From the NCBI RefSeq assembly GCF_009914755.1, contig NC_060930.1: a stretch of DNA of 64,000 nucleotides, one strand, 5' to 3'. The notes beneath the pieces are model-generated. The model was not told where the DNA came from. It was given only the letters and a program-made list of their open reading frames with translations, and ran no database searches. The position numbers were made by a program, and so were the translations under genes. This document shows positions 2,396 through 57,719 of this stretch, one piece after another. The stretch's first letter is position 1. Each line of letters begins with the position of its first letter. This stretch comes from the human T2T-CHM13v2.0 reference genome, Homo sapiens.

Positions 2396-3243
2396 ACAGA
2401 GCCTAGACTAGCAGTACCTATACTCACAGTACCTAGACTAGCGGTGCCTAGACTAGGAGCAGCTGGTTTCTCTAGGCCCCTCACCCCTCACTCTCTCCAT
2501 CCCCTTCTTCCTGGCCCCCCTTCCTTTCCCATTTCCATTCCCATTTTCATAATCATGTTTTCTTTGCTTAAAATACTGGATTTTCCTGCCGCTGGTATGC
2601 ACCAGGCTCAAACAAGCAGGCTAAGACAGCCGTTAGTTGTCCTATCATCAGTCTTTTCTAGAACATATCGTTCTAGAAAAGGTACAGGAAACTTGAGGGG
2701 GCAGCTTCCAAATCCTGCCCACCATGGTGTATCAGAAATATTCAAAACAGAAAACTTGAAGGATATTTGCCTCCTAAAGATCCAAGTTGGAAATAGTTTA
2801 GAGGAAGGTACCTCAATAGCAAGAGAAACACAGGTGATGCGACAAGAGAACCGAGGAGGACAAGTGACCAAGGAATCTATTCCAGATTACTGTTATCTCA
2901 CAACAAGGGGAAATGTGAAGTTGGGATCATAGAAACAAAGAAGTATAGCTAAGAATAACCGAGAATTACAGCTAGGAAAGCTATCAGGAAAATGGGGCTG
3001 GAGGTGGCACGTGAAAGGGATATGAAAACATGCTGAGACTTCTAAAATTAGGAATAAAACAAAACCAATAATACCAATAAATGTGACACATACTGGTATG
3101 AGTCATAGGTTAACGGCGGCCACCCTGAGAAGAAAACTAGAATGTATAACTTTTAAACCAACAGAAAAAAACCCTCAGTATACTAAATGGAACACAGGTA
3201 TGGAGGGGAAATGCCAGCATTAAAAAACACAATAAATACATGT

Positions 3244-7477: not shown

Positions 7478-10400
7478 GTGAGTTCGGGGATGTAGCCTAA
7501 GCAGGGCGGGGGCCAAACCTGGGAGGTTGTGGACTGCAGCGGGTTTCAGAGGAGGGGAGGCTTCTGGAAGGACCGGCGCGATCTCCCTGAACGAACATCG
7601 CGGTCTCCCCGAACGTCGCGGTCCCTCCGAACGTCGCGGTCTCCCCGAACATCGCGGTGCCCCCGAACATCGCTGTCTCCCCGAACATCGCGATCTCCCC
7701 GAACATCGTGATCTCCCCAGACATGCCCAGCTGAAGGCACTCAGTTCCCCTCGGTGGCTCCTTTCCGCCGGGTCCGCTTCCTGCGGCTGCTGCTTGCCCC
7801 TCAGGCCAGGAGGTTTCTGGAAGGACCGGTGCTGTCTCCCCGAACATCGTGGTCTCCCCGAACATCGCGGCCTCTCCGAACATCGCCCTCTCTCCGAGCA
7901 ACGCGATCTCCCCGAACATCGCGGTCTCCCCGAAAATCGCGATCTCCCCGAACATTGCCATCTCACCGAACATCGCGATCTCGCCGAACATGCCCGGCTG
8001 AAGGCACTCAGTTCCCCTCCGCGGCTCCTTTCCGCCGGGTCTGATTCCTGCGGCTGCTGCTTGCCCCGCAGGCCAGGAGGCTTCTGGTAGCACCGGCGCG
8101 ATGCCCCCGAACATCGCGTTCTACCCCAACATCGCGATCCCTCCGAACATCGTGATCCCCCCCGAACATCGCCGTCCCCCCGAGTAACGCGGTCTCCCCG
8201 AACATCGCGGTCCCCCCGAACATCGCGGTACCCCCGAACATCGCCGTCTCCCCGTACATTGCGATCCCCCGAAACATTGCGATCTCCCCGAACATCGCGA
8301 TCTCGCCGAACATGCCCGGCTGAAGGCACTCAGTTCCCCTCCGCGGCTCCTTTCCTCCGGGTCCGCTTCCTGCGGCTGCTGCTTGCCCCATAGGCCAGGA
8401 GGCTTCTGGGTGGACCAGCGCGATCTCCCCGAATATCGCGGTCTACCCGAACATCGCGGCCTCCCCGAACATCGCGGTCTCCCCGAACATCGCGATCCCC
8501 CAGAACATCGCGGCCTCCCCGAACATCGCGGTCTCCCCGAACATCGCGATCCCCCAGAACATCGCGGTCTACCCGAACATCGCGGCCTCCCCGAACATCG
8601 CGGTCTCCCCGAACATCGCGATCCCCCAGAACATCGCGGTCTCCCCGAACATCGCTGTCTCCCCGAACGTGCCTGGCTGAAGGCACTCAGTTCCCCTCCG
8701 GGGCTCCTTTCCGCCGAGTCCGCTTCCTGCAGCTGCTGCTAGCACCGCAGTCCAGGGGGAGTGTCAAAGAAGGCTGAAAAGGAATTGCAGGAGGGTGGAG
8801 GGACCAAAAGGCTACAGAGGGCAAGGTAGGGCGGGGATCCCTGGTGCAGACCCGCAGCCCCACTGGCCCTAGGGAAGGAGAAACCAGATTCCCGAACCCT
8901 AGCTGGGGTCAGGACAGGGGTAAAGGGGAGTTCCACAGGGACGCGATCACAGACTCCCCCATCAGCCACAGCCCTGCTCTGCTCTGACCTGCTGTTCACC
9001 ACACAAAGCTTCCAGCAGCCCCAGGGCTCCCTGCCCTGGAACTTCGCCCCTACACTTTGCTGCAGACACTCACCTGCACGCAGGGGCTCACCAGACACTT
9101 GCTACCCTTCCCCTCACCATTCACTTTCACCACCCAGGTCGCATCCTTTCACTCCCCATCTCAGCTCACCCCTGTCACCACACAGGCCTCCCTCACCTCC
9201 CCATCCATGAAGGGGCCCTTAGCACCTCCCCCGACCAACTAGCACCTTGTCCCCTTTTGCCTGAGGACACACCCCAGCAAACACACCCCAGGCTTTCCAC
9301 AAAACTTAATGCAGGGGGGACGGGAAATCCCATTTCCCTCACGATGACCCTGGGAGCGCCGGTGAGTAGAGGTGCCCACTTCTGCCCTTGGGTCCCAGAC
9401 CCGCCTGTTCTTCCGACTGGGGAGCCAGGGTCATATAGAATAGTCACTAAGCAGACAGGAGTCAGCAAACCCTTTCTAGAAAGGAAAGGCTGAAGGCACT
9501 TTGGTCCTTGCTGGCCGTGAGTTCTCTGTCTGTGTGTCAAGTCCTGTCCCTTTGTAGAGCAACAGCAGGCAATGGTAACCTGCAAATAAAAGGGAGAGCA
9601 GATGTGGACCCTGTCCTAGGTTGCTGACCCCAGATGAGGGCACATGCTGTGTCCTGGCAATTGCTGCCCCATCCCCTAGGGTGTCATCTCCAAGTAGTGT
9701 AAGTTGAAGAGTCACAAGTGTGTCCTACCCTGCCTGTGGCTTCTGGGTGGTGTGGATGTGATGGATGTGAATGGAGGTCCTATGGTTCTGGGCCTACTGC
9801 GCCCCTCCTTTGCTGCTGGGTGGCATCATAGGTCCCTCAGGGCAATCAGGGACCCTCCTTAAAGCCTCAGGTGTGAGCTAAGGGTGAGGGGGTGCAGCCA
9901 TGTAGTGTCCTGGGGATCGGGGCCAACTGCTTGTGCAGCTTCTTGGTTCCCTGTGGCCCTGCTCCTGCCCATCCCAGGAGACCCACCTGTGTCTTCTCAC
10001 TGTGGGGCCTATATTCCTAATGACCTAAAGGGTGAGGAGCCCACCCTGTGATGGGCAGCTCTGAGGCTGTGTGGTCACTGCCCTCCCATAGCTGGAGGCC
10101 CATCTCCACAGGGGCCCAGGACCACAGCAGGAGCCACTTTTAAATGAGGGGATTTCACTGCTGTGAGTGGCACAGCCTTGCTTCTGAGCACTAGGGGATC
10201 CTGTTGTGATTCTGCGGTTGGCAATTGCCATGAAATCCACATAGCACCTTTTCCAACCACATATGCCTCTGGGATCTTAGGGAGTCCAGGGTCAAATAGC
10301 TGTATTGGTAGGTCCAGCGTCACCCCTCATCACAGGGTGTGTATGGCTGCATCCCAGCTACAAGAGCAGAGTTAAGTAGTGACAGGGGAGGTCATATGAC

Positions 10401-13400
10401 CAGCACAACCTATAATAGTTACTACATTAACTACAAACACTGTCCATTCCCGGTACGAATCCAGGAAATGTGAAATTACCATCGAATGGGTCTATGAACC
10501 CAGCCCATCCCTCTAAGCTGGACCTGACAGAGGTGTCCATCTGTTACTTTGCCCTAAATGCACCTCATGAGTAATAGGGGAGCAAGTTAATGCTTTAGGT
10601 CCCTGGGAGGAGGTTGGATCACACACTGTGTCTACTAGGAGTGTCTGGGTATTTGCCATTTCATGGCATACAGTTACCAGAGTGAATGCCCATCTGGCTC
10701 TCTGGGGGAGGCTGAGGGAGTCATTGCAGTTGCTGTGGGGTTGAAGGAGCCCACCAGGGCCTCTGGGCTCTCCTTCTAGCAATGGACTCTGGGTCTGAGA
10801 TGTGGCTCAGTTCTCAAAGCTGGGCAAAGGAGCTCAGTTATTTCCTAGGGTGACTCCTTTCAGCCTTCAGGTCATCCATCCTTGCGTTTTGTCTTTGTTT
10901 GTTGTAATTATTTATATCTAGCAGTATCCGGGTTGAGTTTCCATTTCTTTTGGATCCTTGACCCCTTTGTTCTATGAGCCATGGGCATACATTTTTAAGG
11001 CTGAGGTCCCCCACTGGCATTGTGACTTCTTTAATTATTTACATCATTGCACCCTCCTTCCTGCTGACAGTTGACGGCCTCCGCTTGAGATCTCTTATTT
11101 CAGGATTTTCCATCCCCATTACTACTGGGAGCCCATTTCAGGAACAGCATTTCCTACCCCCAACCCCGGCCTTCAGCAACAGGCATTCCTGGGCTTCTTG
11201 ATAGTCTGCTGCCTTCTCCTGGGGCCTTCTTTATATGCTGGGTATACAAGAGTCCTCCAGTCATCCCATGAGCACAGAGGATGGACGTTGTTCTGGATTT
11301 TCATATTGCAACCACTCTGGCATGGGTGCTTCTCTGAGCCTTTTGATTCTTTCCCTTACACCCTGATGTAGAAGTTCTGGGTTTTCAACTTCTTGCCCTG
11401 TGAACCATCCCTTTACAAGGTTCCAGAAATGCATGCTCATAGCAGATGGGCATCTTCACTGGGGCTTTGCCAACGTGTTAAATCATGTGACCCATGACAA
11501 TAATCACTTGCTTATCTAAACTGAATTCTGCCCTCACCCCACCCACTGTGCTGGAGCATCCCAGGGCAGCTCCCACACACTCTCCCACCTCCTGCAGTCC
11601 ACATGGGCTGCTGCTGAGGGTCCTCCTCATCCAGGCCTTTTCCTGCCACAATAGGCCTGGCACCTCCACCACAAGGTCATGTGCTGACTGATGTCGGCAC
11701 AGAGCAGGTGGGACATGTCTGGAGGGGACATGTGGTTTCATGGCTGCAGGAACCTTCCCCTCCGTGTACTCAAGCAAGGGAGACGCTCTAGTCATTAACT
11801 AGTTTTCATGACAGTCCTGGCTGGGGCATGTCTTGGTCTGCCAGCCCAGCCCCTCAGAGGCCTTCACTTGCAGTCACCATAAGTGGGAGGAGGGGATACA
11901 GGTTCCATTTCCCCCCACACCAACCCCCTCCTGTGTTTTTCTTCCACAGACACACACTGTCTTTGCTATGACTTCATCATCACTCCTAAGTCCAGACCTG
12001 AACCACAGTGGTGTGAAGTTCAAGGCCTGGTGGATGAAAGGCCTTTTCTTCACTATGACTGTGTTAACCACAAGGCCAAAGCCTTTGCTTCTCTGGGGAA
12101 GAAAGTCAATGTCACAAAAACCTGGGAAGAACAAACTGAAACACTAAGAGACGTGGTGGATTTCCTTAAAGGGCAACTGCTTGACATTCAAGTGGAGAAT
12201 TTAATACCCATTGGTAAGTTTAAAATGGCCCAGGGAGCAGACACAGTAGTAACTTAGAGTCATTTATTGATTTCATATGAAAAATAAATCAGAAGTTTGT
12301 GTCACCCAAGAGGTTGAGGAGCATGGGCCGGATGCAGCAGAGAGAGCAAGTCCAGGAGCCAGGAAAGGAAGCAGGGTGGGGCTCAGGCTTTGTCAAGATC
12401 AGAGCTGATCTCTTTGCAATGGGGCAGAGCCCCTCACCCTGCAGGCCAGGATGTCTTGTGAGCATGAAGCCCATGGACACGGCAGAGGATCTTGGCAGTT
12501 CCTCTTCAATGGACAGAAGTTCCTCCTCTTTGACTCAAACAACAGAAAGTGGACAGCACTTCATCCTGGAGCCAAGAAGATGACAGAGAAGTGGGAGAAG
12601 AACAGGGATGTGACCATGTTCTTCCAGAAGATTTCACTGGGGGATTGTAAGATGTGGCTTGAAGAATTTTTGATGTACTGGGAACAAATGCTGGATCCAA
12701 CAAGTAAGTGAGAGGGGGATAAATGGAAGCTGTCTCGAGTTCAGATCTTATCAGCTGGTGTATGTGTGTGAGTGCGTGTGTGTGTGTGTTTGAGTGAGTA
12801 TGAACATGACCCCCTCATGGGGGGCTCCTCCTGGGGGTCCTGGCATGCCTGTGCTCTCTCATCCTCCTCTCCCTTCTTCCCCCTGACTCCTCTTCCTCAC
12901 TGCACCTGCTTCTGCTCTACCCACCGCATTTCTCACCAGCCTCAAATCTGTGGGTGTCATAGTGTTTCCACATCTTTTTCATTAGTGTTCCTTCCTCCTA
13001 GAATCACCTTTTCTTTCCTCTCCCCTCATCGGTTTCTGTAAATCCATCAAAATCACCTCCAATGCCAGGGCCTGAGGCCCTCCCCTCCCTGGCCCTGGGA
13101 CATCACCTCCTCTTTCTCCACAGCAGGAGGGTGGACTGTGCTGTCACCTCGCTTCCCTTAGCAGATGTGTGAGCTCCCTGAGGGCAGGGGACACCCCCTC
13201 TCCCTTCTTACCCCAAGACTTGTCCCAGAGGTTGCCCCACAGCAGAGGGGGACAAAAGGTCTGCCTTCCAGGATGACCTGGGGTGGCAGGAGCTGAGGAG
13301 ACATCCCCTAAGATTTTGAGCCTGGACAAGGGTTGTCACTCCTGTGTTTCCATTTCAGAACCACCCTCTCTGGCCCCAGGCACAACCCAACCCAAGGCCA

Positions 13401-19619: not shown

Positions 19620-19930
19620 CTGTGATGGTGAATATTAGGTGTCCAGTGGATTGGATAAGGGATGCCTAGATGGCTGGTAATGTACTCTTTCTGGGTGTGT
19701 CTGTCAGGGTGTTGCCAGAGGAGACTGACGTTTGAGTCGGGGGATGGGGAGAGGAAGACCCCTATCAGTGTGGGTGGGCACCATACCATGGGTTGCCAGC
19801 TGGGCTAGATGAGAGCAGGTGAGAGAGGGTGGGGTGACTCTGTTGGCGGAGCTCTCTGGCTTCTCTCTGCCTTCCCTGCGGGTTCTTGCTTCCTTCCTCC
19901 TTGGACATCAGACTGCAGGTTGTTTGGCCT
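19620..19930 (+). mobile_element. ERVL LTR (MLT2-like) 5' part
   Basis: TGTGATGGTGAATATT...CTGGGTGTGTCTGTCAGGGTGTTGCCAGAGGAG. Confidence 0.7.
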
Positions 19931-21166
19931 TCCCTCCTCCTGACAGGTGACAGCCTCTACCTGGGATCAGTTATTTCAGATCATTACTCCTGGGAGTCAT
20001 TTAGGGAACAGCATTTCCTACTCCCAACCCTGGCCTTCAGTAACAGGTATCCCTGAGCTTCTTGACAGTCTGCTGCCTTCTCCCAGAGCCTTCTTTATAT
20101 GCTGGGTAAACAAGAGTCCTCCAGGCTTCCCATGAGCATAGAGGACGGACATTGTTCTGGATTTTCACACTGACACCCCTCTGGCATGGGCACTTCTCTG
20201 AGCCTGTGATCCCTTCCTCTACGCCCTACCTTAGAAGTTCTAGATTTTCTACTTCTAGCCTTGTGAACCATCCCTCTTCCAAGGTTTCAGGAATGCATCT
20301 CATAGCAGATGGGCAGCATCACCAGGGGCTTTGCCAATGTGTTAAATCCTGTGACTATGACAATAATCTCTTTATGATACAAATTGGATTCTGTCCTCAC
20401 CCCACCCACTGTGCTGGAGCATCCTAGGGCAGCCCCCACACCCTCTCCCACCTCCTGCAGTCCCCAGGGGCTGCTGAGGAAGATCCTCCTCATCCAGGCC
20501 TTTTCCTGCCACAGCAGGCCTGGCTGCTGACATGACAAGGTCATGTGCTGACCGATGTGGGCAGAGCCCAGGTGGGATATGTTTTGGGAGGACATGTGGT
20601 TTCATGGCTGCAGGGACCTTCCTCGCCTTGTACTCTAGCAAAGGAGACACTCTAGTCTTTAACTAGTTGACATGACAGTCCTAGCTGGGGCACGTCTTGC
20701 TCTGCCAGCCCAGCCCCTCAAAGGCCTTCACTTGCAGTCACCATAAGGGGGAGGAGGGGTCTCAGGTTCCACTCCCAGCCACACCATCCCCCTCCTGTGT
20801 TTTTCTTCCATACACACACACTGCCTTTGCTATGACTTCATCGTCACTCCTAAGTTCAGACCTGAACCACGATGGTGTGAAGTTCAAGATCAGGTGGATA
20901 AAAGGCCTTTTCTTCACTATGACTGTGTTAGCCATAAGGCCAAAGCCTTTGCTTCTCTGGGGAAGAAAGTCAATGTCACAAAAGCCTGGGAAGAACAGAC
21001 TGAAACACTAAGAGACATGGTGGATTTCCTCAAAGAGCAACTGCCTGACGTTCGAGTGGAGAATTGAATATCCAGTGGTAAGTTTAAAATGGCCCAGGAC
21101 AGGAGGGAGCAGACACTATAATAGCTTAGAAACCTTTAATGTGTTCATGCAACAAATAAATCAGGT

Positions 21167-22039: not shown

Positions 22040-22697
22040 AACAAATAAATCAGGTTTATATCACTTGAGAGGTCAAGGAGCAAGGGCAGCAGACAGGAAA
22101 GGAAGCAGGGTGGGGCTCACAATTTGTCAAGATCAGAGCTGATCTCTTTCCAAAGGGGCAGAGCCTCTCACCCTGCAGGCCAGGATGTCTTGTGAGCACA
22201 AAGCCCATGGACACAGCAGAGGATCTTGGCAGTTTCTCTTCAATGGACAGAGGTTCCTCCTCTTTGACCCAAACAACAGAAAGTAGACAGTGCTTCATCC
22301 TGGAGTCAAGAAGATGAAAGAGAAGTGGGAGAAGAACAGGGATGTGGCCATGTTCTTCCAGAAGATTTCACTGGGAGACGGAAACTTGGCTTGAGGAATT
22401 CTTGATACACTGGGAAAAAATGCTGAAGAGAACAAGTAAGTGGGAAGAAAACAAAGGTAGCTGTCCTGAGTTCAGATCTAATCAGTCCAGTGTCTGTGTG
22501 TGTGTGTGTGTGTGTGTTTGAGTGAGTGTGAACAAGACCCCCTCATGGAGGGCTCCTCCTGGGGGTGCCTGTGCTCTCCCATCCTCCTCTCCCTTCTCCC
22601 TCCTGACTCCTCTTCCTCACTGCACTTGCTTCTGCTCCCCTCCTTGTGGATTTCTCACCAGCCTTGAAACTGCGGGTGTCACTGAGTTTCCAGACCT

Positions 22698-25041: not shown

Positions 25042-26983
25042 TCAAAAAAACCACAGATGTTGGTGAAGCCGAGGAGAAAAAGGAACACTTAGACTCTGTT
25101 GCTGGGAAAGCAAACTAGTCCAGCCACTACGGAAAGAAGTTTGGAGATTTCTCAAAGAAGGTAAAATAGAACTACCATTCAACCCAGTAGTCCTGCTGCT
25201 GGGGATATATCTAAAGGAAAATAATTTATTCAATCAAATAGACCCATATGTTCATTGCAGTGCTATTCTCATGAGCAAGGACGCAGAACCAATCTAAGTG
25301 CCCAGCAGCAGGGGACTGAATGAAGGAAGCGTGGTACGTATGCACCATGGAAATCTATGCAGCCACGAAAGACAACAAAATCATGTCATTTTCAGCAACA
25401 TGGATGGAGCTGGAGGCCATTATCCTAGGTGACTTAACAGAACAGACAACTGCATTCTGCAGGTTCTCGTTTATAAGAGGAGGGCTAAACATTAAATATA
25501 TATGAATATAAAGATGGGAACCACAGACACTGGAGATCACTAGACAGGGGAGGGAGGAGGGGCATGTGGGCTGAAGAACCACCCACTGGGTACCGCTTTT
25601 ACTGTCTGGGTGATGGGATAGTTGGGACCCCAAGCCGCAGCCTCCCACAATTGACCCATGTAACGAACCTGCACGTGTACTCTTTAATCTATAAAAAGAG
25701 TTGAAATTAAAAATGAATAAAGAAAATAAAATGACATGAGGCAAAAACAAAAAATGGGTTTAACTGACAGGGGTGAGAGAGAACTCTGCATTATCAACTC
25801 TAACCCTGCTCTAAAAAAATAAACTCTAGTCATTTAAAATAAGTGTAAGGTATATGACCATAATGTTATAAAAATTACATATGATTATACCAAAACCCTA
25901 ACATTAAACACTGTATAATGGAATTATGGATAATTGCCATCTTGTTATTATACCTTTCTTTTTTGTCCCATTTTCAAGTGACATTTTTTGTTTATCCTCA
26001 GGAACTCATTGCTTACAGGGGTCCCCTTCTGTACCTACCACCTTTTCCACTGTCCACCTGAGCCCTTCCTCTGGCCTGGGACTATGGCTTCCTTGGCACT
26101 GAAGGCACAAGAGCTGCATTCAGCCTCAGGAGAGGATGATGCAGGGTAGGTTGTGGAGGTGGTCTCAGCATTGCAGGTGAGTCTAACAGCGCCCAGTCTC
26201 CATTGCAGACGGCTGCATTTCTCCACCATGTTAGCTACAACCAAGCCAACCTTGCCCCTTTCTTGTTTGGTTTTTGTCTCACTCTTCCCAACTGCTTCTT
26301 GAAAATTCATATTCTTCCACCTAACATTTCTTTCTACTTCTTGACTTCACAATGTACACTGATTTGTTGTGCCCAGAAAACACTGGTCCCACCATGTCGT
26401 AAGTTACCATCTAAAGTGTAGTGAATGAATGGACAGGAAAGAGGCCCCTGCCCCAATCACTGCCTCTCATTTATTCACTCACAGGGTAAGTACAGCCTCA
26501 GCACCAACAATGGGCTGTGCTGCGGATGCTTCCCTGAGGAAAACAGACAAAATCCCTGCTCCAGTGGGGACAGCAGGTGAACCTAATGAGCAGGGGCATT
26601 GCATCGGGTGTAGGAAGGTGACAGATGATTCTGGGGGCGGGGAACAAGGTTGTGGGAAGGAGACTGGGAGGGGACCTCCCAGGTCCTCAGTAGTCTGAAC
26701 AGGAAGGTCTCTAAAGAAGGTGACATATGAGTCCTGGCTTCAAGGAAGTGAGCATTCCCCGCAGGAGGCAGAGCCCGCGAATATGGCCTTGAGCGGTCCA
26801 GGGAAAATCCAGAAGGTGCCTCCGTAACATTTTCAAGACAACCCCAAAACAAAAGAAATACCGAAGAATGTATTTATTAAGTAGTTAGGACCAAGAAAGA
26901 AATATTCATGACCTAGCAATTTAATCACCGTTTAAGAAAATATTTCACATGAATTGAAAAAGTAGTATATTTATTTCATTCTC

Positions 26984-27898
26984 TTTTTTTTTTTTGAGCT
27001 GGAAGGGCTGGGTGTCTTTTTCTTTTTGTTTTTCTTTTTTTTGAGCTGGAAGGGCTGGGTGTCTTTTTCTTTTTCTTTTTTTTTTTGAGCTGGAAGGGCT
27101 GGGTGTCTTTTTTTTTCTTTTTTTTTTTTGAGCTGGAAGGGCTGGGTGTCATTTTCTTTTTCTTTTTTTTGAGCTGGAAGGGCTGGGTGTCTTTTTTTTT
27201 CTTTTTTTTTTTGAGCTGGAAGGGCTGGGTGTCATTTTCTTTTTCTTTTTTTTGAGCTGGAAGGGCTGGGTGTCATTTTCTTTTTCTTTTTTTTTGAGCT
27301 GGAAGGGCTGGGTGTCTTTTTCTTTTTTTTTTTTGAGTGGAAGGGCTGGGTGTCTTTTTTTTTTGAGTGGAAGGGCTGGGTGTCTTTTTTTTGAGTGGAA
27401 GGGCTGGGTGTCTTTTTTTTTTGAGTGGAAGGGCTGGGTGTCTTTTTTTTTTTTGAGTGGAAGGGCTGGGTGTCTTTTTTTTTTTTTGAGTGGAAGGGCT
27501 GGGTGTCTTTTTTTTTTTTCTTTTTTTTTGAGCTGGAAGGGCTGGGTGTCTTTTTCTTTTTCTTTTTTTTGAGCTGGAAGGGCTGGGTGTCTTTTTTTTT
27601 TTTGAGCTGGAAGGGCTGGGTGTCTTTTTCTTTTGTTTTTTGAGTGGAAGGGCTGGGTGTCTTTTTCTTTTTTTTTTTTTGAGTGGAAGGGCTGGGTGTC
27701 TTTTTTTTTTGAGTGGAAGGGCTGGGTGTCTTTTTCTTTTTCTTTTTTTTGAGCTGGAAGGGCTGGGTGTCATTTTCTTTTTCTTTTTTTTTGAGTGGAA
27801 GGGCTGGGTGTCTTTTTCTTTTTCTTTTTTTTTTTTGAGCTGGAAGGGCTGGGTGTCTTTTTTTTTTTTTTTTTTTTGAGCTGGAAGGGCTGGGTGTC
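26984..27898. repeat. Tandem array of 24 x [T-tract + GAG(C)TGGAAGGGCTGGGTGTC]
   Basis: Counted 14 copies of the 21-mer and 10 of a 20-mer lacking one C, each preceded by a variable poly(T). Confidence 0.95.
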
Positions 27899-28386
27899 AT
27901 TTATTGACAGCAGTTTATACACATTTGTTTCCTTCCCATGGTTGTTTCCTTCCCAGCACAGGCACAGAGCCCTTGAGAAAGGTAGTCTCTGAACCAGGGA
28001 GCCAGGAACGCAGGTCGGACACATCTTTGGCAGGCAAGTTCAGCTCCACCAGGATGCAATCCTTCAAGTTGGAATTCCGTTGGGTATTTGAGAGGGACCA
28101 CGGTGAGAGGTAGAGAGGGAGTCTCCAACAGGACTCACATCTCAGCCCAAGCCTCCTCATTATCCAAGTCCATACAAGTTTTAGGACGCTGGGGGACAAC
28201 AATCAGGCCCATCCACCTCAACAGGGGCAGATTCTTCAATCTGTGTCCAGTTCACACACATCTGCTTCTGCCGGTCGCACAGTTCGAGAGAATCAGCCTT
28301 ATGTTAAGGGACAGACTGCCTCTTCTCTGCCCTTCCCTGGCACCTCTCTTCAGCGGCATCTGTGCAGGAACTGCTGGGAAGATGGA
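26984..28386 (-). pseudogene. Prohibitin (PHB1) processed-pseudogene fragment: distal 3' UTR plus amplified poly(A) tail
   Basis: Minus strand reads ...GAATTCCAACTTGAAGGATTGCATCCTG...GGAAGGAAACAAATGTGTATAAACTGCTGTCAATAAATGACACCCAGCCCTTCCAGCTC(A)n, matching the PHB1 mRNA 3' end as I recall it; AATAAA at 27900-27905. Confidence 0.8.
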
Positions 28387-29110
28387 CACATAGACACTGG
28401 TTACATTTGTTGTGATGCAGTCATTCTGTGCAATATTGTGCAGAGATAAAAAGGAAAAGAATCTGTATGTGTGGGTCTTGGAAGATCTTCAAACTGTTAT
28501 TTTGGGATAGAATCTGCGTGCAGCAGAGTGCCTATGGGCTTATCTTTGTTATAAAAACCAGCATTGATACGTACACATGTCTGCACTATTAGTAAAGAAA
28601 ACAGTGTTTCCATAACTTCTTGCCAGTCTGTTTATCCGTTTTAGGAAAAATCAATATAGTTAAAAAGCCATGGTGGCAGGAATTGGTCATCACCAGCCCT
28701 GATTCTACACTGCCCTACACATCATCTCAACTGAGGTTGCTGGAGGAACAGGATGTGGAATACAGTCACGTTTCAGAGAGGAACCTAAAGTCAAACTGGA
28801 CCAGGGGTCTTGCCCCGACCTCTGCCTCTTCACCCAACCCCCACCTGGTCAGGCAGTGACCCTGGAGGGGCTGGGATGATGCTGGGAGGGCCGTGAAATG
28901 GGGAGCCAATGGTGAGAGCATGGTGAACACAGAGAGCCCAGACCCCACACCATCTGGGGAGGAACTCATGTGATGCTGGGAGCACTGGGAAGGCAGGGAG
29001 CCTGGCTGCAGCACTCACTGTTCCTCTCATCTGGGACCGGATTGGGGTGGATGATGAGAAAAGTTTCCTGAATATCATAGTTTCCAAACCTGGCAGGATG
29101 ACTCACCCCG
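28386..29110. repeat. Inverted duplicate of ~56520-57240
   Basis: ORFs 28620..28859+ and 56768..57007- are nearly identical. Confidence 0.9.
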
Positions 29111-29559
29111 GTTGCACTCACAGCCAAGACCCACTCGGCCTCTGGACCAATCTACCGCAGGGGATGGTAAAGTCAGGAGTGTGAATACTACTGAGCCTTC
29201 TGCCAGGGCATAAGAAACAGCAAGTGTAGGATGACCAGCAGGAGGCTCAGACTACCCTGCCCTGCACTCTCCCACTTTGAGTGGGGAGGAAGCCTTGAGC
29301 CCAGGGGGTTGAGATTTCAGTGAACTATGATCGTGCCACCGCACTCCAGACTGGTGACAGAGCAAGACTCTGTCACACACATGTTCACACACACAAATTA
29401 AATTGTGATATAATACATGTAACATGAAAGTTTCCATCTTAACCATTTTTAAATGTAAAAGTATCTTTTTCAAAATGCAGTATTTCCACCTGCCTGAGCA
29501 ATCCTGGACCTTCTTCACCTGAATTTTTTCTTCCTAAAGCAAGGACCACTTTAAATCAG

Positions 29560-30400
29560 ACTGTATTAGTTTTCAATAGCTGTTGTTACAAATTACTACA
29601 AATTTAGTGTTTTAAAACAACATACATTCATCCAGGCACGGTGGCTCACGCCTGTAATCCCACCACTTTGGGAGGCTGAGTTGGGCAGATCACGATGTCA
29701 AGAGATCCAGGCCAACATCACGAAACCCCGTCCTACTAATAATACAAAAACTAGCCAGGCATGATGGCATGTGGCTGTAGTCCCAGCTACTCAGGAGGCT
29801 GAGGCAGGAGAATCATTTGAACCCGGGAGACGGGGTTGCACTGAGCCGAGATCATGCCGCTGCACTACAGCCTGGTGACAGAGCGAGTCTCTAACTCAAA
29901 AACAAAACAAAACAAAACAAAAACACACATTGATTTTCTTAAATTCTCCTATGGTTCTGGAGCTCAGAAGTCTGAATGGTCTTTCGAGGCTAACATCACT
30001 GCGCTGTCAGAGCTGTGTTTCTTTGGGAGGCTCTTGGAGAGAACCTGTCTCCTCCTCACCTTTTCCAGCTTCTCCAGCTGCCCACATCCATGACACAGGA
30101 CCCATTTCCCCACCTTCAAATGGAGCTCCACCAGGCTGGATCCTCAGGGTGCCCTCTGTCTTGTTCTCCCTCTTCTGTCCCCATCTTCCTGTATAAAGAT
30201 CCTGTGGTTACAATGGACCCCTGGGAAATCCAGAGAATTACCCCATCTCCAGGACAGATGATAAGCAACCTCAGCTCCACCTGCAGCCTTCATTCCCCTT
30301 TCCATGTAACCCAGTGCAGAGGTTCCAGGGACTCGGACCTGCATCTTGTCAGGGAGGTGGGGGTGGGGGTGGGATGATTCTGCCCAGGACCCATACCATA
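29560..30400. mobile_element. MLT1-like LTR with an inserted AluS (29631-29925)
   Basis: ACAAATTACTACAAATTTAGTG...TTCCATGTAACC; Alu dimer. Confidence 0.65.
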
Positions 30401-30514
30401 TACTTTTTATATTTATCATTTTTACAGCACAAAATGCAGGAGGGAGCAGAGCAATACTGGAGAAGAGATTTTTCATCCTATTAAAATTAAGCATGAGGCA
30501 CACATCTTTGCTCT

Positions 30515-30720
30515 CAGTACTTTGGGAGGCCAAGTAAGAAATATTGCTTGAGCCCAGGAGGTCAAGGCTACAGTGAGCTATGATCATACCACTGCATGCC
30601 AGCCTGGGTCAGCCCAGGAGGTCAAGGCTACAGTGAATTATGATCATTCCACTGCATGCCAGCCTGGGTCACAGAGTGAGACCCTGTTTCAAAAATAAAA
30701 TAACATAAAATAAGATAAAA
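30515..30720 (+). mobile_element. AluJ/FLAM fragment with an internal 60-bp tandem duplication
   Basis: AGCCCAGGAGGTCAAGGCTACAGTG...CAGCCTGGGTC at 30551 and 30611. Confidence 0.8.
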
Positions 30721-30959
30721 AGTTGCTTTTTATCCAATCTAGGTTGTGATAAATTAAGATATTAATTGCTATTCCACAGGAAAACCACTAAGAAAGTAAC
30801 ATTTTAAAAATAATTAAGGGGCCGGGTGTAGTGGCTCATGCCTGTAAACCCAGCACTTTGGGAGGCTGAGGCGGGCAAATCCCCTGAAGTTGGGAGTTTA
30901 AGACCAACCTGACCAACATGGAGAAACCCTGTCTCTACTAAAAAATACAATAAATACAT

Positions 30960-31722
30960 ATGGAAAAGTAAGAACAAGGTGACAGGTGTAAATTCTGCCT
31001 TAGCAATACTTCCATTACCTCTCAAACTATTAAATACTCAAAAGCAAAAGCAGAGGTTGACAGAATGCATTTTATAAATGATCTAAAGATACAATGTAGA
31101 TCCAAAGATACAAGTCGGTTGAAAGTAAAAGTATAAAAAAGACAAAGCACACCAATAGTAAAGAAAGACAGTTGAAATTGCTATTAACGATTTTTTGTCT
31201 GTGTTTCTAGAAACAGGGTCTTGATTTGTTGCCCAGGTTGGTCTTGCTCCTGGGCTCAAACAGTCCTCTGATCTGGGCCTCTCAAAGTACTGGGATTACA
31301 GGTGTGAACCACAATGCCCAGCCTGAAATTAATAATATCAAGCAATGTGGTGTTTAAGACAAAAATTTTTTCTGAAACACTCTTTTAAAACTAAATGATT
31401 AAAAAGAAAATCACAAAAAATCAGAAAATAAGATAAATTAAAACAAAAACACAGCATATTATAACTTATGAGAAGTAGCTAAAGCAGTCCTTAGAGGGAA
31501 ATGCATTGCTGTCAGTGTGAATATATTGAGAAAGAGAAAAGAAACAAAGGAGTAATCTCAAATTGAGAACCTAATATTTCACTTGAAGAAACTCAAAAAA
31601 GAAGCCATCTACTCAAAATAAACGAACAATGAATAGGAATTAGAATGTAAATAAATGAAGTAGAGAAGAGAAAAACATTGGAGAACTCAACAAAACTGAT
31701 AGCTGAGTGTTCGAAAAGCTTG
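30960..31722 (+). mobile_element. Old L1 ORF2 fragments with a FLAM (31200-31325, -)
   Basis: GCTAAAGCAGTCCTTAGAGGGAAAT motif. Confidence 0.6.
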
Positions 31723-31725
31723 GTC

Positions 31726-33710
<1,985 letters not shown>

Positions 33711-52963: not shown

Positions 52964-55682
52964 TGCACATGTATTTATTGTGTTTTTTAATGCTGGCATT
53001 TCCCCTCCGTAGCTGTGTTCCATTTAGTATACTGAGGGTTCTTTTCTGTTGGTTTAAAAGTTATACATTCTAGTTTTCTTCTCAGGGTGGCTGCCCTTAA
53101 CCTATGACTCATACCAATATGTATTCACATTTATTGGTATTATTGGTTTTGTTTTATTCCTAATTTTAGAAGTCTCAGCATGTTTTCCTATCCCTTTCAC
53201 GTGCCACCTCCAGCCCCATTTTCCTGATAATTTTCCTAGCTGTAATTCTCGGTTATTCTTAGCTACACTTCCTTGTTTCTGTGATCCTAACTTCACATTT
53301 CCCCTTGTTGTGAGATAACAGTAATCTGGAATGGATTCCTTGGTCACTTGTCCTCCTTGGTTCTCTTGTCGCATCTCCTGTGTTTCTCTTGCTGTTGAGG
53401 TACCTTCCTCTGAACTATTTCCAACTTGGATCTTTAGGAGGCAAATATCCTTCAGGTTTTCTATAATTTCGAATATTTCTAATACACTGCAGTGGGTAGG
53501 ATTTGGAAGCTGCCCCTTCAAGTTTCCTGTACCTTTTCTAGAACGATATGTTATAGAAAACACTGATGATAGGACAACTAACCACTGTCTTAGCCTGTTT
53601 CATTGAGCATGGAGCATACCAGCCGCAGGAAAATCCAGTATTTTAAGCAAGGAAGGAAGGAGTATGAAAGTGGGAATGCAAACGGGAAAGAAAAGGGGGG
53701 CCAGGAAGAAGGGGATGGAGAGAGTAAGGGGTGAGGGGCCTAGAGAAACCAGCTGCTCCTAGTCTAGGCACCGCTAGTCTAGGTACTGAGAGTCTAGGTA
53801 CCGCTAGTCTAGGTACTGAGAGTCTAGGTACCGCTAGTCTAGGCTCTGCACAGTCATAATTAAAGCTACTCATCAGTTAACCTTAAAATAGAGAGATTTT
53901 CCTGGATTCTCTGAGTGGGCCCAGTGCCATCACATGAGCTCTAAAAAGCAGAGAATTTTCTCAGGCTGGAGCCAAGAAAGATGCGTCCAATGTCAGACAG
54001 ATTCTAAGCATGAGAAGGATTTCATGCACTGTTGCTGGCTCTGAGATGTGGGGGCCATGAGCAAGACTGGAGAGGGGCCTCTGGGAGTTAGGGAAGGGCT
54101 GCAGCTGACAGCCAGCAGGGAAGCTGGGACCTTAGTCCCACAGGTCCAAGGACTGGATTCTGCCATCAACCTGAGTGCACTTGGAAGCAGATGCTTCCCA
54201 GAACCTCCCAACCAGAGCCCAGCAGGTGGACACCTTGACCTTGACCTTGAGGAACTGGGAGCAGAGAAACCAATCAAGCCATCTCAGACTTGCAACCTAG
54301 AGGACTGTGAAATAATAAAGATGTACTGATTTAAGCAGGTAAGTATGTGGCAATTTGTTATGACTGCAACAGAAAAGATACCTTCCTATTTAAATGAGAA
54401 TTTGACTGGATAAAAAATTCTAAGCTCAAGTTCTTTTCCTTCATATTTTAGAAAGAATACTCCGTTGTTATCTTGCAACCAGGGTTGCTGTTGTGTAGTC
54501 TGTTGGCCAAGTGTTTCCTTCTTCCTTCCATTGTTTCTCTGGGGTAATATGGGTGAGGGAGCCAGAAGCCTGAGCTTCTTTCCTGTCTTCATCCAGTGGA
54601 TTTGTACTGTTCCAGGCTGTTAGTCACAGTCTCAAGGAGGTGGAGAATGGTTTCTAGTTTAACCTACCTTTTCATAGATGCACTTGTAGATCAGACAAGC
54701 TTATTGTTTTTCTCTTATTCAGCTACTGTTAGTCTTCTCTCCTACCACCTTTCATAAATATTAAACTTACTGAGACATAATTTACAGACAATACTCCTTT
54801 GTGAACATAGGAGCTTAAAGTCTCTTATCTTTAGGAGTATATTGAAACTTGTAGGCATTTGGCCGTATTATAAGGCATGTTCCCAGGCTATAAATGTTAA
54901 ATAGTTGAATGATATTACTTCAGTCATGCATCATCTTACCAACCTGTCAGTTCTGTAGAAAATCACATTTCTAGCATTACTTGCTTCAGGTTTGCAGGAG
55001 AGAAAAACAACAATGTTTTCACTGAACATTGGCTTTTAGACAAAATGAGGGCTAGAACTATATTAAATTCATTTTTACTTCCTATCATTTCTGTATTTTA
55101 TAGATTTCATAAAACCGGCCCACTGTCTTAAATTTATTACAATTTATGACAGATATCTTAGTAAAATACTCCATCCCTTTCAGTTATTGGAAACACTAAT
55201 GAATTCTAGGCTTAAACAATAAATAGCACATTGTAGAACAGCAGTGCTGTTTCAAAACTGAACTCAGTTGAATTAATCAGGCATGACAAGATGTTTTTAT
55301 GATTCTGACAGAAGCTTAATGAACAATGTTAAATAGATTTAAACACTTTTTTATAATATATCTAAATGGTGTGAATTATGGTAACACTGCCTTTGAGAAG
55401 AAATCATCAATTTTGGATTTCACATACAGGATGGCACCCTAGGAAAACGTTAAAAAGTCAGGAGAATTGTACCTTTAAGACTGGAATTGACTAATGAAAA
55501 TATACATTACCAGAGAAACCTCCTGGGATGCCTGGACATTTACTTGTGATGCGAGCATTTTCCTGCCTAGAAACAGCAAAACTGACTGTTTAGCTGTAAC
55601 TGGCAGGCACCACATGCCATAGCAACAACAGAGCAAGAAAACCAGGAAAATTTATTTTTAAGTCCGTGCCTGATAATTCTAA

Positions 55683-55979: not shown

Positions 55980-57719
55980 AAGATCATTCTAAAATCTAAA
56001 GCTGCAAAGTCTAACCCAGCAGTTACTAGCTACATGAGGCTATTAAGAGCTTGCAATACAACTAGTTTAAATTGAGAAGTACTGTCAGTATATGGTGCAC
56101 ACCAAATTCCAAAGGCTTAGTATGAAAATGTCAAATGTCTCATTATTCATTTTTCCATTGATGACATGTTGAAATAATCATTTTGGTTAAAAAAATTTAG
56201 TTAAAACATATTGAGTTAAAAATGTTGTAAAAATATATTTCACCTGTTTCTTTTTATTTTTTTCAGTGTGTTCACTAGAATATTTAAAATTCCCTGTGTG
56301 GCTCACACTTGTGGCTTGCATTATATTTCTATCAGAGGACTGATCTAGAGGTTCCATGTATTTTCTGTCTCTGTTGCACATTTCAGCTGGTTCTTGTTGT
56401 TGCTATCTTATCTCCCCATGTGGTTGGTTATCTTTGTCTATGTTCTGGATACAGTGTTTTAAAAATTGCTGTTGACAGAATATAAAGTGTAGGATGGGCT
56501 GGGCATAGTGGCAACCGGGGCCAGCCATTCTGCCAGGCTTGGGAACTGTGCTACTCAGGAAACTTTTCTCATCACCCACCCCAATCCTGTCCCAGATTGG
56601 AGGAACAGTAAGTGCTGTGCCTAGGCTCCCTGTCTTCCCAGTGCTCCCAGCATCACACCAGCTCCTCCCCAGTTGCTGTGGGGTCCCGACTCTCCATGTT
56701 CACCATGCTCCCAAAATTGGCTCCCCATCTTCACTGCCCACAAAGCATGGTCCCAGCTCCTCCAGGGTCACTGCCTGACCAGGTGGGGGTTGGGTGAAGA
56801 GGCAGAGATCAAGACAAGACACTTGGTCCAGTTTGACTTCAGGTTCTTCACTGAAACGTGACTGCATTCCACATCCTGTTCCTCCGGCAACCTCAGCTGG
56901 GACGATGTGTAGGGCAGTGTAGAATGTTGGCGGGTGATGACCAATTCCTGCCACCATGGCTTTTCAGCTATATTGATTTTTCCTAAAACGGACAAACAGA
57001 CTGGCAATAAGTTATGGAAATACTGTTTTCTTTACTAACAGTAGAGATGTGTACATGTATCAATGCTGATTTTTAAAACAAATATAAGCCCATAGGCACT
57101 CTGCTGAACGCAGATTCTATCTCAAAATAACACATTTTCAAGATCTTCCAATACCTGCACATACAGATTCTTTTCCTTTTTATCTCTGCACATTACATAG
57201 AATGACTGCATCACAACAAATGTTACCAGTGTCTGTGTCTGAAGATCCAGATGGTCTCCAGTCAGTTACTTTTAGAGAAACTAAATGCTGCAGAAACTGT
57301 GCTTGCATGAATCTCAATTTAATTGTGTAGAATAGATTTGCAGACACAGAATTGCTGTGCAAATTAATGCACCTTTAAAGCATCTCATGTCACGGATGGC
57401 AATGCTGGCGACACTCTTGTCTGTGATTGTGATGACCCAGCTTGGGCAGAGGATGGTGAAACATCCACTATAGTGGGAGGGGAAACTGAAGGACAGGGAG
57501 ACAGGTTTCATCAAGAGCAAAAAATATCCAAGTCTGAATGAAGAATATCTATACATATGCGTTTGAAATGGCATAAAGACTCCCTGGAAAGATTCAAAGA
57601 ATCCAATCATGTCTCATTCCGGGCTGTGGCCAATGAGATTGGATGCAGGCAGGGGCGGGGGAGACTTTCACACATGACTTTTCATGGTTTCGATCCTGAA
57701 ACACGTGAAAATATGTAGG

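What the first reader, a model, noticed from the sequence alone, without database searches (positions are those of the whole stretch)
26984..27905. Minisatellite made from an mRNA 3' end: 24 tandem copies of the last 21 nt of a PHB1 retrocopy plus poly(A)
Seen: on the minus strand the retrocopy ends AATAAAT-GACACCCAGCCCTTCCAGCTC-(A)n, and exactly the signal-to-tail segment plus a variable A-tract is repeated 23 more times. Four extra units keep AAATGAC from the poly(A) signal. A 1-nt deletion variant forms a run of six and a run of three, showing secondary block amplification. Inference: it arose from misalignment between the AATAAA A-run and the poly(A) tail, either by reiterative re-priming during L1 reverse transcription or by later slippage. 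It is likely a highly length-polymorphic, nucleosome-disfavouring element 10 kb downstream of ULBP1.
Basis: partly seen in the sequence, partly recalled or inferred. Interest (0 to 1): 0.75.

Follow-up and report, generated by a model that had tools for sequence, protein, structure and literature searches.

The report
Minisatellite grown from a pseudogene's tail
Ten kilobases past the immune gene ULBP1, the last 21 letters and poly(A) tail of a prohibitin pseudogene fragment are repeated 24 times, while its duplicated sister copy nearby has them once, so the repeat likely grew by DNA slippage long after the pseudogene inserted; no function is shown.

Summary
The array is real: 24 cores (14 full-length, 10 lacking one G, no substitutions) with A-rich spacers, minus strand 27898-26984, at the 3' end of a 512-bp PHB1 3'UTR retrocopy. 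That piece is not a separate insertion. It is a segmental duplicate of PHB1P1, about 60 kb away, and it lost 6.8 kb by deletion. An empty-site paralogue and both target-site copies survive in the cluster. PHB1P1 and the seven other PHB1 3' ends found carry no repeat. All 24 units share two bases with PHB1P1 that differ from PHB1, so they cannot be fresh copies of the mRNA. This rules out reverse-transcriptase re-priming as the source of the present units; post-insertion slippage between A-tracts is likely. Published GRCh38 coordinates give only a 2-bp net length difference across 24 kb spanning the array. That argues against an artefact and gives no support for high polymorphism (two haplotypes only). 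The same 3'-end-plus-tail duplication recurs at Alu tails, with 2-3 units. No function was found. Verdict: a well-resolved minisatellite birth, a new variant of a known kind, interest 0.35.

The parts
26984..27898 (-). 24-unit minisatellite: 20-21-nt PHB1 signal-to-cleavage core plus A-rich spacer, 915 bp
27900..27905 (-). AATAAA poly(A) signal of the retrocopy; present once, not part of the unit
27878..28389 (-). 3'UTR-only fragment of a PHB1 processed pseudogene, sister of PHB1P1; not in the gene table supplied
   Evidence: 12.3% from PHB1P1; sister pair, FastTree 0.905
28386..28392 (-). Junction of a 6,812-bp deletion (5,498 bp of flank including the 5' target-site copy, plus 1,314 bp of the retrocopy); microhomology 0-3 bp, ambiguous
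   Evidence: 4 of 4 paralogues continue undeleted
26972..26982 (-). 3' copy of the 11-12-bp target-site duplication; the 5' copy survives at PHB1P1
   Evidence: compared with the PHB1P1 5' junction and the empty site in L018
27335..27507 (-). Run of six deletion-variant units (11-16), five with pure-A spacers
27642..27730 (-). Run of three deletion-variant units (5-7); a singleton lies at 27793-27812
27108..27274 (-). Units 18-21: a two-unit block duplicated (exact 73-nt repeat, period 83)
25314..26983 (-). 3' flank shared with the PHB1P1 segment and with the empty-site paralogue
28388..31973 (-). 5' flank shared with the PHB1P1 segment; its first 0.7-1 kb is also in three other cluster paralogues

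Best explanation
This is a single-locus 24-unit minisatellite made of the last 21 bases and poly(A) tail of a duplicated, partly deleted PHB1 pseudogene, and it likely grew long after insertion by DNA slippage between A-runs, with no function shown. Step 1 (shown by comparison): one PHB1 mRNA copy inserted once, leaving a target-site duplication. Step 2 (shown): the segment was duplicated within the ULBP cluster. One copy is PHB1P1; this copy lost 6.8 kb. Step 3 (inferred): in this copy a misalignment duplicated the 21-nt core plus tail. It paired either the AAA of the poly(A) signal with the tail, or the AATGA shared by the signal and the target site. Step 4 (inferred): every unit then carried an A-tract, so mispairing between tracts of different units added single units and blocks and shifted the A-lengths, spreading the one-base deletion variant in runs. 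Step 5 (inferred): the present units are young, a few to about 12 million years on a star model, against tens of millions for the duplication. It is most likely neutral DNA.
For: PHB1P1 joins 7 chr17 exon blocks and shares the 3' flank with the window. Empty site and both target-site copies identified. Window and PHB1P1 segments are sisters in the retrocopy (0.905; 4 exclusive shared sites), in the 5' flank (0.97) and in the 3' flank (10.5% vs 13-14%). 0 of the 8 other PHB1 3' ends found are repeated. Core position 10 is C in all 24 units and PHB1P1 but A in 6 of 6 other informative copies; position 17 is A (CpG decay) in all 24 and PHB1P1 but G in 4 of 5 others. No substitutions in 24 cores against 12.3% divergence between the duplicates; block structure. 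Such duplications recur: 16 of 19 distinct Alu-tail loci from three patterns are two-unit end-plus-tail duplications.
Against: No ape, monkey or population sequence could be examined, so timing rests on assumed rates. Slippage, unequal crossover and gene conversion cannot be told apart from one haplotype. A two-unit seed made at insertion and later homogenised is not excluded: 9 of the 16 Alu dimers have diverged cores, as old duplications would, and reverse-transcription slippage does duplicate non-A bases in tails (PMC3415434). Position 17 decayed independently in one unrelated copy (L013), so it is weaker evidence than position 10. Exclusive shared sites are not unique to the sister pair (8 for L007-L008, 5 for L005-L007).
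Confidence: 0.8

Rival explanations
1. L1 reverse transcriptase slipped at insertion and made a two-unit seed. PHB1P1 later collapsed to one unit, while this copy expanded and homogenised.
For: Slippage duplicated non-A tail bases in five recovered Alu inserts (PMC3415434 passages). Alu end-plus-tail dimers exist, and 9 of 16 have diverged cores.
Against: It needs an extra loss in PHB1P1 and homogenisation that reaches both edge units. The first and last units are identical and carry the post-insertion bases.
Confidence: 0.11
2. All 24 units were written at once by reiterative re-priming during reverse transcription.
For: The unit stops exactly at the mRNA cleavage site and includes the tail.
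Against: Each unit would be a fresh mRNA copy, yet all 24 carry two non-mRNA bases and no other substitution; the sister copy has one unit.
Confidence: 0.02
3. The array, however it arose, is a functional, length-variable regulator of ULBP1, RAET1K or RAET1L, for example as a nucleosome-poor element.
For: 26 A/T runs of 8 or more in 915 bp; it lies between NKG2D-ligand genes (hub table).
Against: No RefSeq functional element overlaps it (hub table). Net length matches GRCh38 within 2 bp. No listing in the supplements searched. No Rfam match. No canonical G-quadruplex motif.
Confidence: 0.05
4. Assembly artefact.
For: Long homopolymers are error-prone, so single A-lengths may be wrong.
Against: The longest exact internal repeat is 73 nt. 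Anchors either side have the same spacing in GRCh38 within 2 bp.
Confidence: 0.02

Closest known systems
Retroelement-derived minisatellites (Ahmed and Liang 2012, PMC3389668; parts 2-3 of 4 read)
   Same: A piece of a retroposed sequence duplicated in place and expanded locally; single locus.
   Different: The source here is a cellular mRNA 3' end, not a TE family, and the unit includes the poly(A) tail. That survey required at least 40% GC and 95% unit identity; this array has about 39% GC and 79% TRF matches.
Haber-Louis minisatellite birth between short direct repeats (as described in PMC6947457 and PMC3389668 passages; original not seen)
   Same: A unit bounded by short repeats is duplicated, then amplified by slippage, conversion or unequal crossover.
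   Different: The bounding repeats here are A-runs, or a 5-bp match, supplied by the poly(A) signal, the tail and the target site. The A-tract stays inside each unit and varies in length.
Poly(A)-tail-derived microsatellites of Alu and L1 (review PMC3812793, passages)
   Same: Born at a retroposon tail; the spacers show the same A5G-type interruptions as the tail of retrocopy L003.
   Different: The repeated unit reaches upstream of the tail and takes in 21 nt of unique mRNA sequence; period 28-47 nt.
A-tail duplication by L1 ORF2p slippage (Wagstaff 2012, PMC3415434, passages)
   Same: It yields tail-sequence-tail duplications at a retroposon 3' end.
   Different: It acts at insertion on the RNA template; the units here carry post-insertion changes and the sister copy has one unit.
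PHB1P1 (PHBP1), processed pseudogene at 6q25 (PMC5438715, passages)
   Same: Same insertion event, same target site and flanks.
   Different: Full length, one unit, with an Alu in its 3' flank; the window copy is a 512-bp unannotated remnant bearing the array.

Membership tests
L1-mediated processed pseudogene | Introns removed | tested here: met
   PHB1P1 joins 7 separate chr17 blocks. The window piece lies in the last exon, so this holds through its sister copy.
L1-mediated processed pseudogene | Poly(A) added at the mRNA cleavage site after a poly(A) signal | tested here: met
   The gene continues without an A-run at the point where the copies have one; 6 of the 8 pseudogene copies, the window's included, end at that site and L007 and L008 end a few bases earlier.
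L1-mediated processed pseudogene | Target-site duplication at a T/A-rich nick site | tested here: met
   11-12 bp, 5' copy at PHB1P1 and 3' copy at 26982-26972; the empty site reads TTT then AAGAA. The endonuclease consensus is recalled.
Minisatellite / VNTR | Head-to-tail units of about 10-100 bp with variant repeats | tested here: met
   24 units, period 28-47 nt, two core types.
Minisatellite / VNTR | Copy number varies between people | tested here: inconclusive
   Net 2-bp difference from GRCh38 over 24 kb; two haplotypes only, possibly close kin, and by coordinates not sequence.
TE-derived tandem repeat (Ahmed and Liang definition) | Unit matches or overlaps an annotated TE; GC at least 40%; units at least 95% alike | tested here: not met
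   The unit is PHB1 3'UTR; GC about 39%; TRF matches 79%.
Reverse-transcription slippage product | Units are copies of the RNA template and are present in all descendants of the insertion | tested here: not met
   All 24 units carry two non-mRNA bases; PHB1P1 has one unit.
Haber-Louis origin | 5-10-bp direct repeats bounding the unit | tested here: inconclusive
   AATGA occurs at the signal and in the target site, and A-runs bound the unit; a 5-bp match can be chance and the junctions fit either.
Human-specific VNTR expansion | Absent or much shorter in apes | not testable with these tools
   No ape genomes held; not found in 3 of 4 supplements of PMC8327921; the Sulovari 2019 list was not held.

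The most novel reading that the evidence does not exclude
Retroposon 3' ends with their poly(A) tails are an under-catalogued nursery of minisatellites: end-plus-tail dimers arise repeatedly and rarely run away. This 24-unit array would be a young, human- or ape-specific runaway whose length varies between people and tunes NKG2D-ligand expression in the ULBP/RAET1 cluster.
Probability: 0.08. Interest if true: 0.65.

Novelty: new variant of a known kind. Interest (0 to 1): 0.35.

Why it matters
One gene cluster in one genome holds three stages side by side: the empty target site, the insertion with one unit (PHB1P1), and the 24-unit array. That makes it an unusually clean case of minisatellite birth, with the order of events readable from shared mutations. 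It also points to a small class of end-plus-tail duplications that GC and identity filters would drop from repeat surveys. Biological effect is unshown. It would matter more if long reads showed wide length variation tied to ULBP1, RAET1K or RAET1L expression.

Tried and rejected
Independent 5'-truncated insertion: rejected, because the 5' end is a deletion junction and both flanks are shared with PHB1P1. A target-site duplication around the fragment itself: only 7-bp chance matches, since the 5' copy was deleted. Multi-locus repeat family: rejected; 24 of 26 exact genome matches are here, and the roughly 5,000 one-mismatch hits appear to come from a chrY tandem array of about 3.5-kb period (first 100 listed). 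Structured RNA: 0 Rfam matches. G-quadruplex: 0 canonical motifs, G4Hunter maximum 1.0. An L1-end analogue: 1 pattern hit, and it is not a tail duplication. The 17 Alu matches were seen only as matched strings; two overlap at C19:32661186-32661246 and imply three units. Literature: 9 full-text searches listed no paper on this locus by title or abstract start. Supplement searches for the locus were empty in PMC8327921 (3 files; 1 not searchable), PMC11701250, PMC13308034, PMC13263140 and PMC13689511. PMC8024321 (10 files; 1 not searchable) lists neighbouring repeats but not this one, and the rows shown are coding, UTR or promoter repeats, so absence there says little. Genome-wide VNTR call sets lie outside these files, so the array may well be catalogued as an anonymous repeat. 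Earlier scan findings were not available.

Full report
Observation. On the minus strand the sequence runs AATAAA (27905-27900), T, then 24 copies of a core, each followed by an A-rich spacer, ending at 26984. Fourteen cores are 21 nt and ten lack one G (units 3, 5-7, 11-16). There is no substitution among the 24. TRF.0 copies, period 41, score 965. Of 26 exact genome matches to the first 17 nt of the core, 24 are in this array.

What the retrocopy is. A search of the genome with 27880-28450 gave 13 matches: the window itself, eight PHB1-like 3' ends (PHB1P1, the chr17 gene and six other copies) and four matches to the flank alone within the ULBP cluster. PHB1P1 joins seven separate chr17 blocks, and its first 40 codons match Prohibitin 1 (E 8e-17). 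The window piece (28389-27878) is 3'UTR only. It shares its 3' flank with PHB1P1. Its 5' flank matches sequence 5.5 kb upstream of PHB1P1. Four of four paralogues continue undeleted at that point, so this copy lost 6,812 bp: 5,498 of flank and 1,314 of retrocopy. A paralogue beyond ULBP2 (L018) has no insertion and shows the empty site. The 11-12-bp target-site duplication is split: its 5' copy sits before PHB1P1 and its 3' copy at 26982-26972. Trees place the window and PHB1P1 segments together in the retrocopy (0.905, eight sequences; L013 left out as too short) and in the 5' flank (0.97, five sequences). The 3' flanks differ by 10.5%, against 13-14% from the empty paralogue. So there was one insertion, then a segmental duplication, then a deletion in this copy.

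When the array arose. None of the eight other 3' ends is repeated; PHB1P1 has one unit and a simple A-tail. Core position 10 is C in all 24 units and in PHB1P1, but A in six of six other informative copies, older and younger, including the gene. Position 17 is A in all 24 and in PHB1P1, but G, as part of a CpG, in four of five others; L013 decayed independently. Re-priming on the mRNA would write A and G into every unit, so the present units descend from one already mutated genomic unit. The duplicates differ by 12.3% while the cores differ by nothing. On a star model with assumed rates of 0.5-2.2e-9 per site per year, the 95% upper bound for the units is 12 to 3 million years, against 134 to 31 for the duplication. 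The ratio, about tenfold, does not depend on the rate, but homogenisation could hide an older start.

Mechanism. Shown: order of events, unit anatomy, block structure. The deletion variant is clustered (7 runs, P=0.012) and goes with pure-A spacers (6 of 10 vs 2 of 13, Fisher P=0.039). Units 18-19 and 20-21 share an exact 73 nt at period 83. Inferred: the first duplication came from mispairing between the AAA of the signal and the tail, or between AATGA in the signal and in the target site; the T-bearing junctions fit either. After that, any two A-tracts could mispair, adding or removing whole units and shifting A-lengths. Slippage, unequal crossover and conversion cannot be separated here. 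A dimer made at insertion and later homogenised remains possible (about 0.11).

Is the pattern general? Three short patterns for an Alu 3' end preceded by an A-run gave 20 hits at 19 distinct loci, with 0 for the reversed controls. Sixteen of the 19 are two-unit duplications, one including some flank; 7 have identical and 9 diverged cores; none has more than two units. A fourth pattern gave 17 matches, seen as strings only, two of which overlap and imply three units. The Alu motifs are recalled and the patterns are narrow, so these are lower bounds. The seed event recurs; growth to 24 units was not seen in this sample.

Artefact and polymorphism. Supplement 4 of PMC8024321 gives GRCh38 starts for repeats that TRF also finds here: 149973605 (window 16949) and 149997823 (window 41165). 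The offsets, worked out by hand, are 149,956,656 and 149,956,658. The 24 kb spanning the array therefore differ by about 2 bp net. Unless a large indel compensates, GRCh38 holds the array at about the same length. This argues against an artefact, as does the lack of long exact internal repeats. It gives no support for high polymorphism, though two possibly related haplotypes are a weak test.

Function. None shown. The array is rich in A/T runs (275 of 915 bases in runs of 8 or more), which would disfavour nucleosomes (recalled knowledge). It overlaps no RefSeq element in the hub table, has no Rfam match and no canonical G-quadruplex motif.

Comparison with what is known. Retroelement-derived minisatellites are common: 7,276 in PMC3389668 (parts 2-3 of 4 read), a survey whose GC and identity filters would drop this array. 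Birth between short direct repeats is the standard model (PMC6947457 passages). Tail-derived microsatellites are reviewed in PMC3812793 (passages), and slippage duplication of tail bases was shown in PMC3415434 (passages). PHBP1 is described as a processed pseudogene at 6q25 with an antisense transcript (PMC5438715 passages). PMC12350158 has no 'ULBP' in its main text; PMC8327921 passages show it excludes repeats within repetitive elements. Nine searches and six supplement sets did not show this locus, or a minisatellite built from a cellular mRNA's signal-to-tail segment. Unseen supplements and genome-wide call sets, including the Sulovari 2019 list, may hold it.

Verdict. A real single-locus minisatellite with a well-resolved post-insertion origin; a new variant of a known kind; most likely neutral. 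Interest 0.35. The boldest reading not excluded is a young, variable regulator of NKG2D ligands and the extreme member of an overlooked class (probability 0.08, interest 0.65).

Noticed in passing
window 19928-21164 and 22078-22692: 85-86% matches to ULBP1 11052-12292 and 12344-12970 (exons 2-3 region) on either side of BTF3P10: a ULBP remnant absent from the gene table, interrupted by the BTF3 retrocopy.
   Followed up: no
window 7592-8668: CpG-rich 18-bp repeat at the start of ULBP1 intron 1, about 1.1 kb. PMC8024321 lists only 127 bp of it, with alleles of 18-144 bp, not tested for eQTL. It overlaps a RefSeq enhancer and looks a better regulatory candidate than the array studied.
   Followed up: partly
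L038-L057; G000:C19:32661186-32661246: Alu 3'-end-plus-A-tail tandem duplications: 16 of 19 loci are two-unit, and one further place implies three units.
   Followed up: partly
L002 about 2170-2470 (3' of PHB1P1): An Alu-like insertion 160 bp past the PHB1P1 tail that is absent from the window copy; a marker for dating the duplication.
   Followed up: no
L005 about 1981-2005: A chr2 PHB1 retrocopy whose signal-to-tail segment is replaced by a short inverted copy of the adjacent sequence: a second rearrangement at the same 3' end.
   Followed up: no
window 56511-57238 and L011 (G000:C6:151154937-151155663): These two cluster paralogues differ by only 3.3%, against about 10-12% for the other pairs: a recent duplication or gene conversion between the ULBP1-side and RAET1L-side segments.
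   Followed up: no
window 2402-2456 and 53759-53843: Related 15/30-bp tandem repeats on opposite strands with different copy numbers, 3.7 and 5.7.
   Followed up: no
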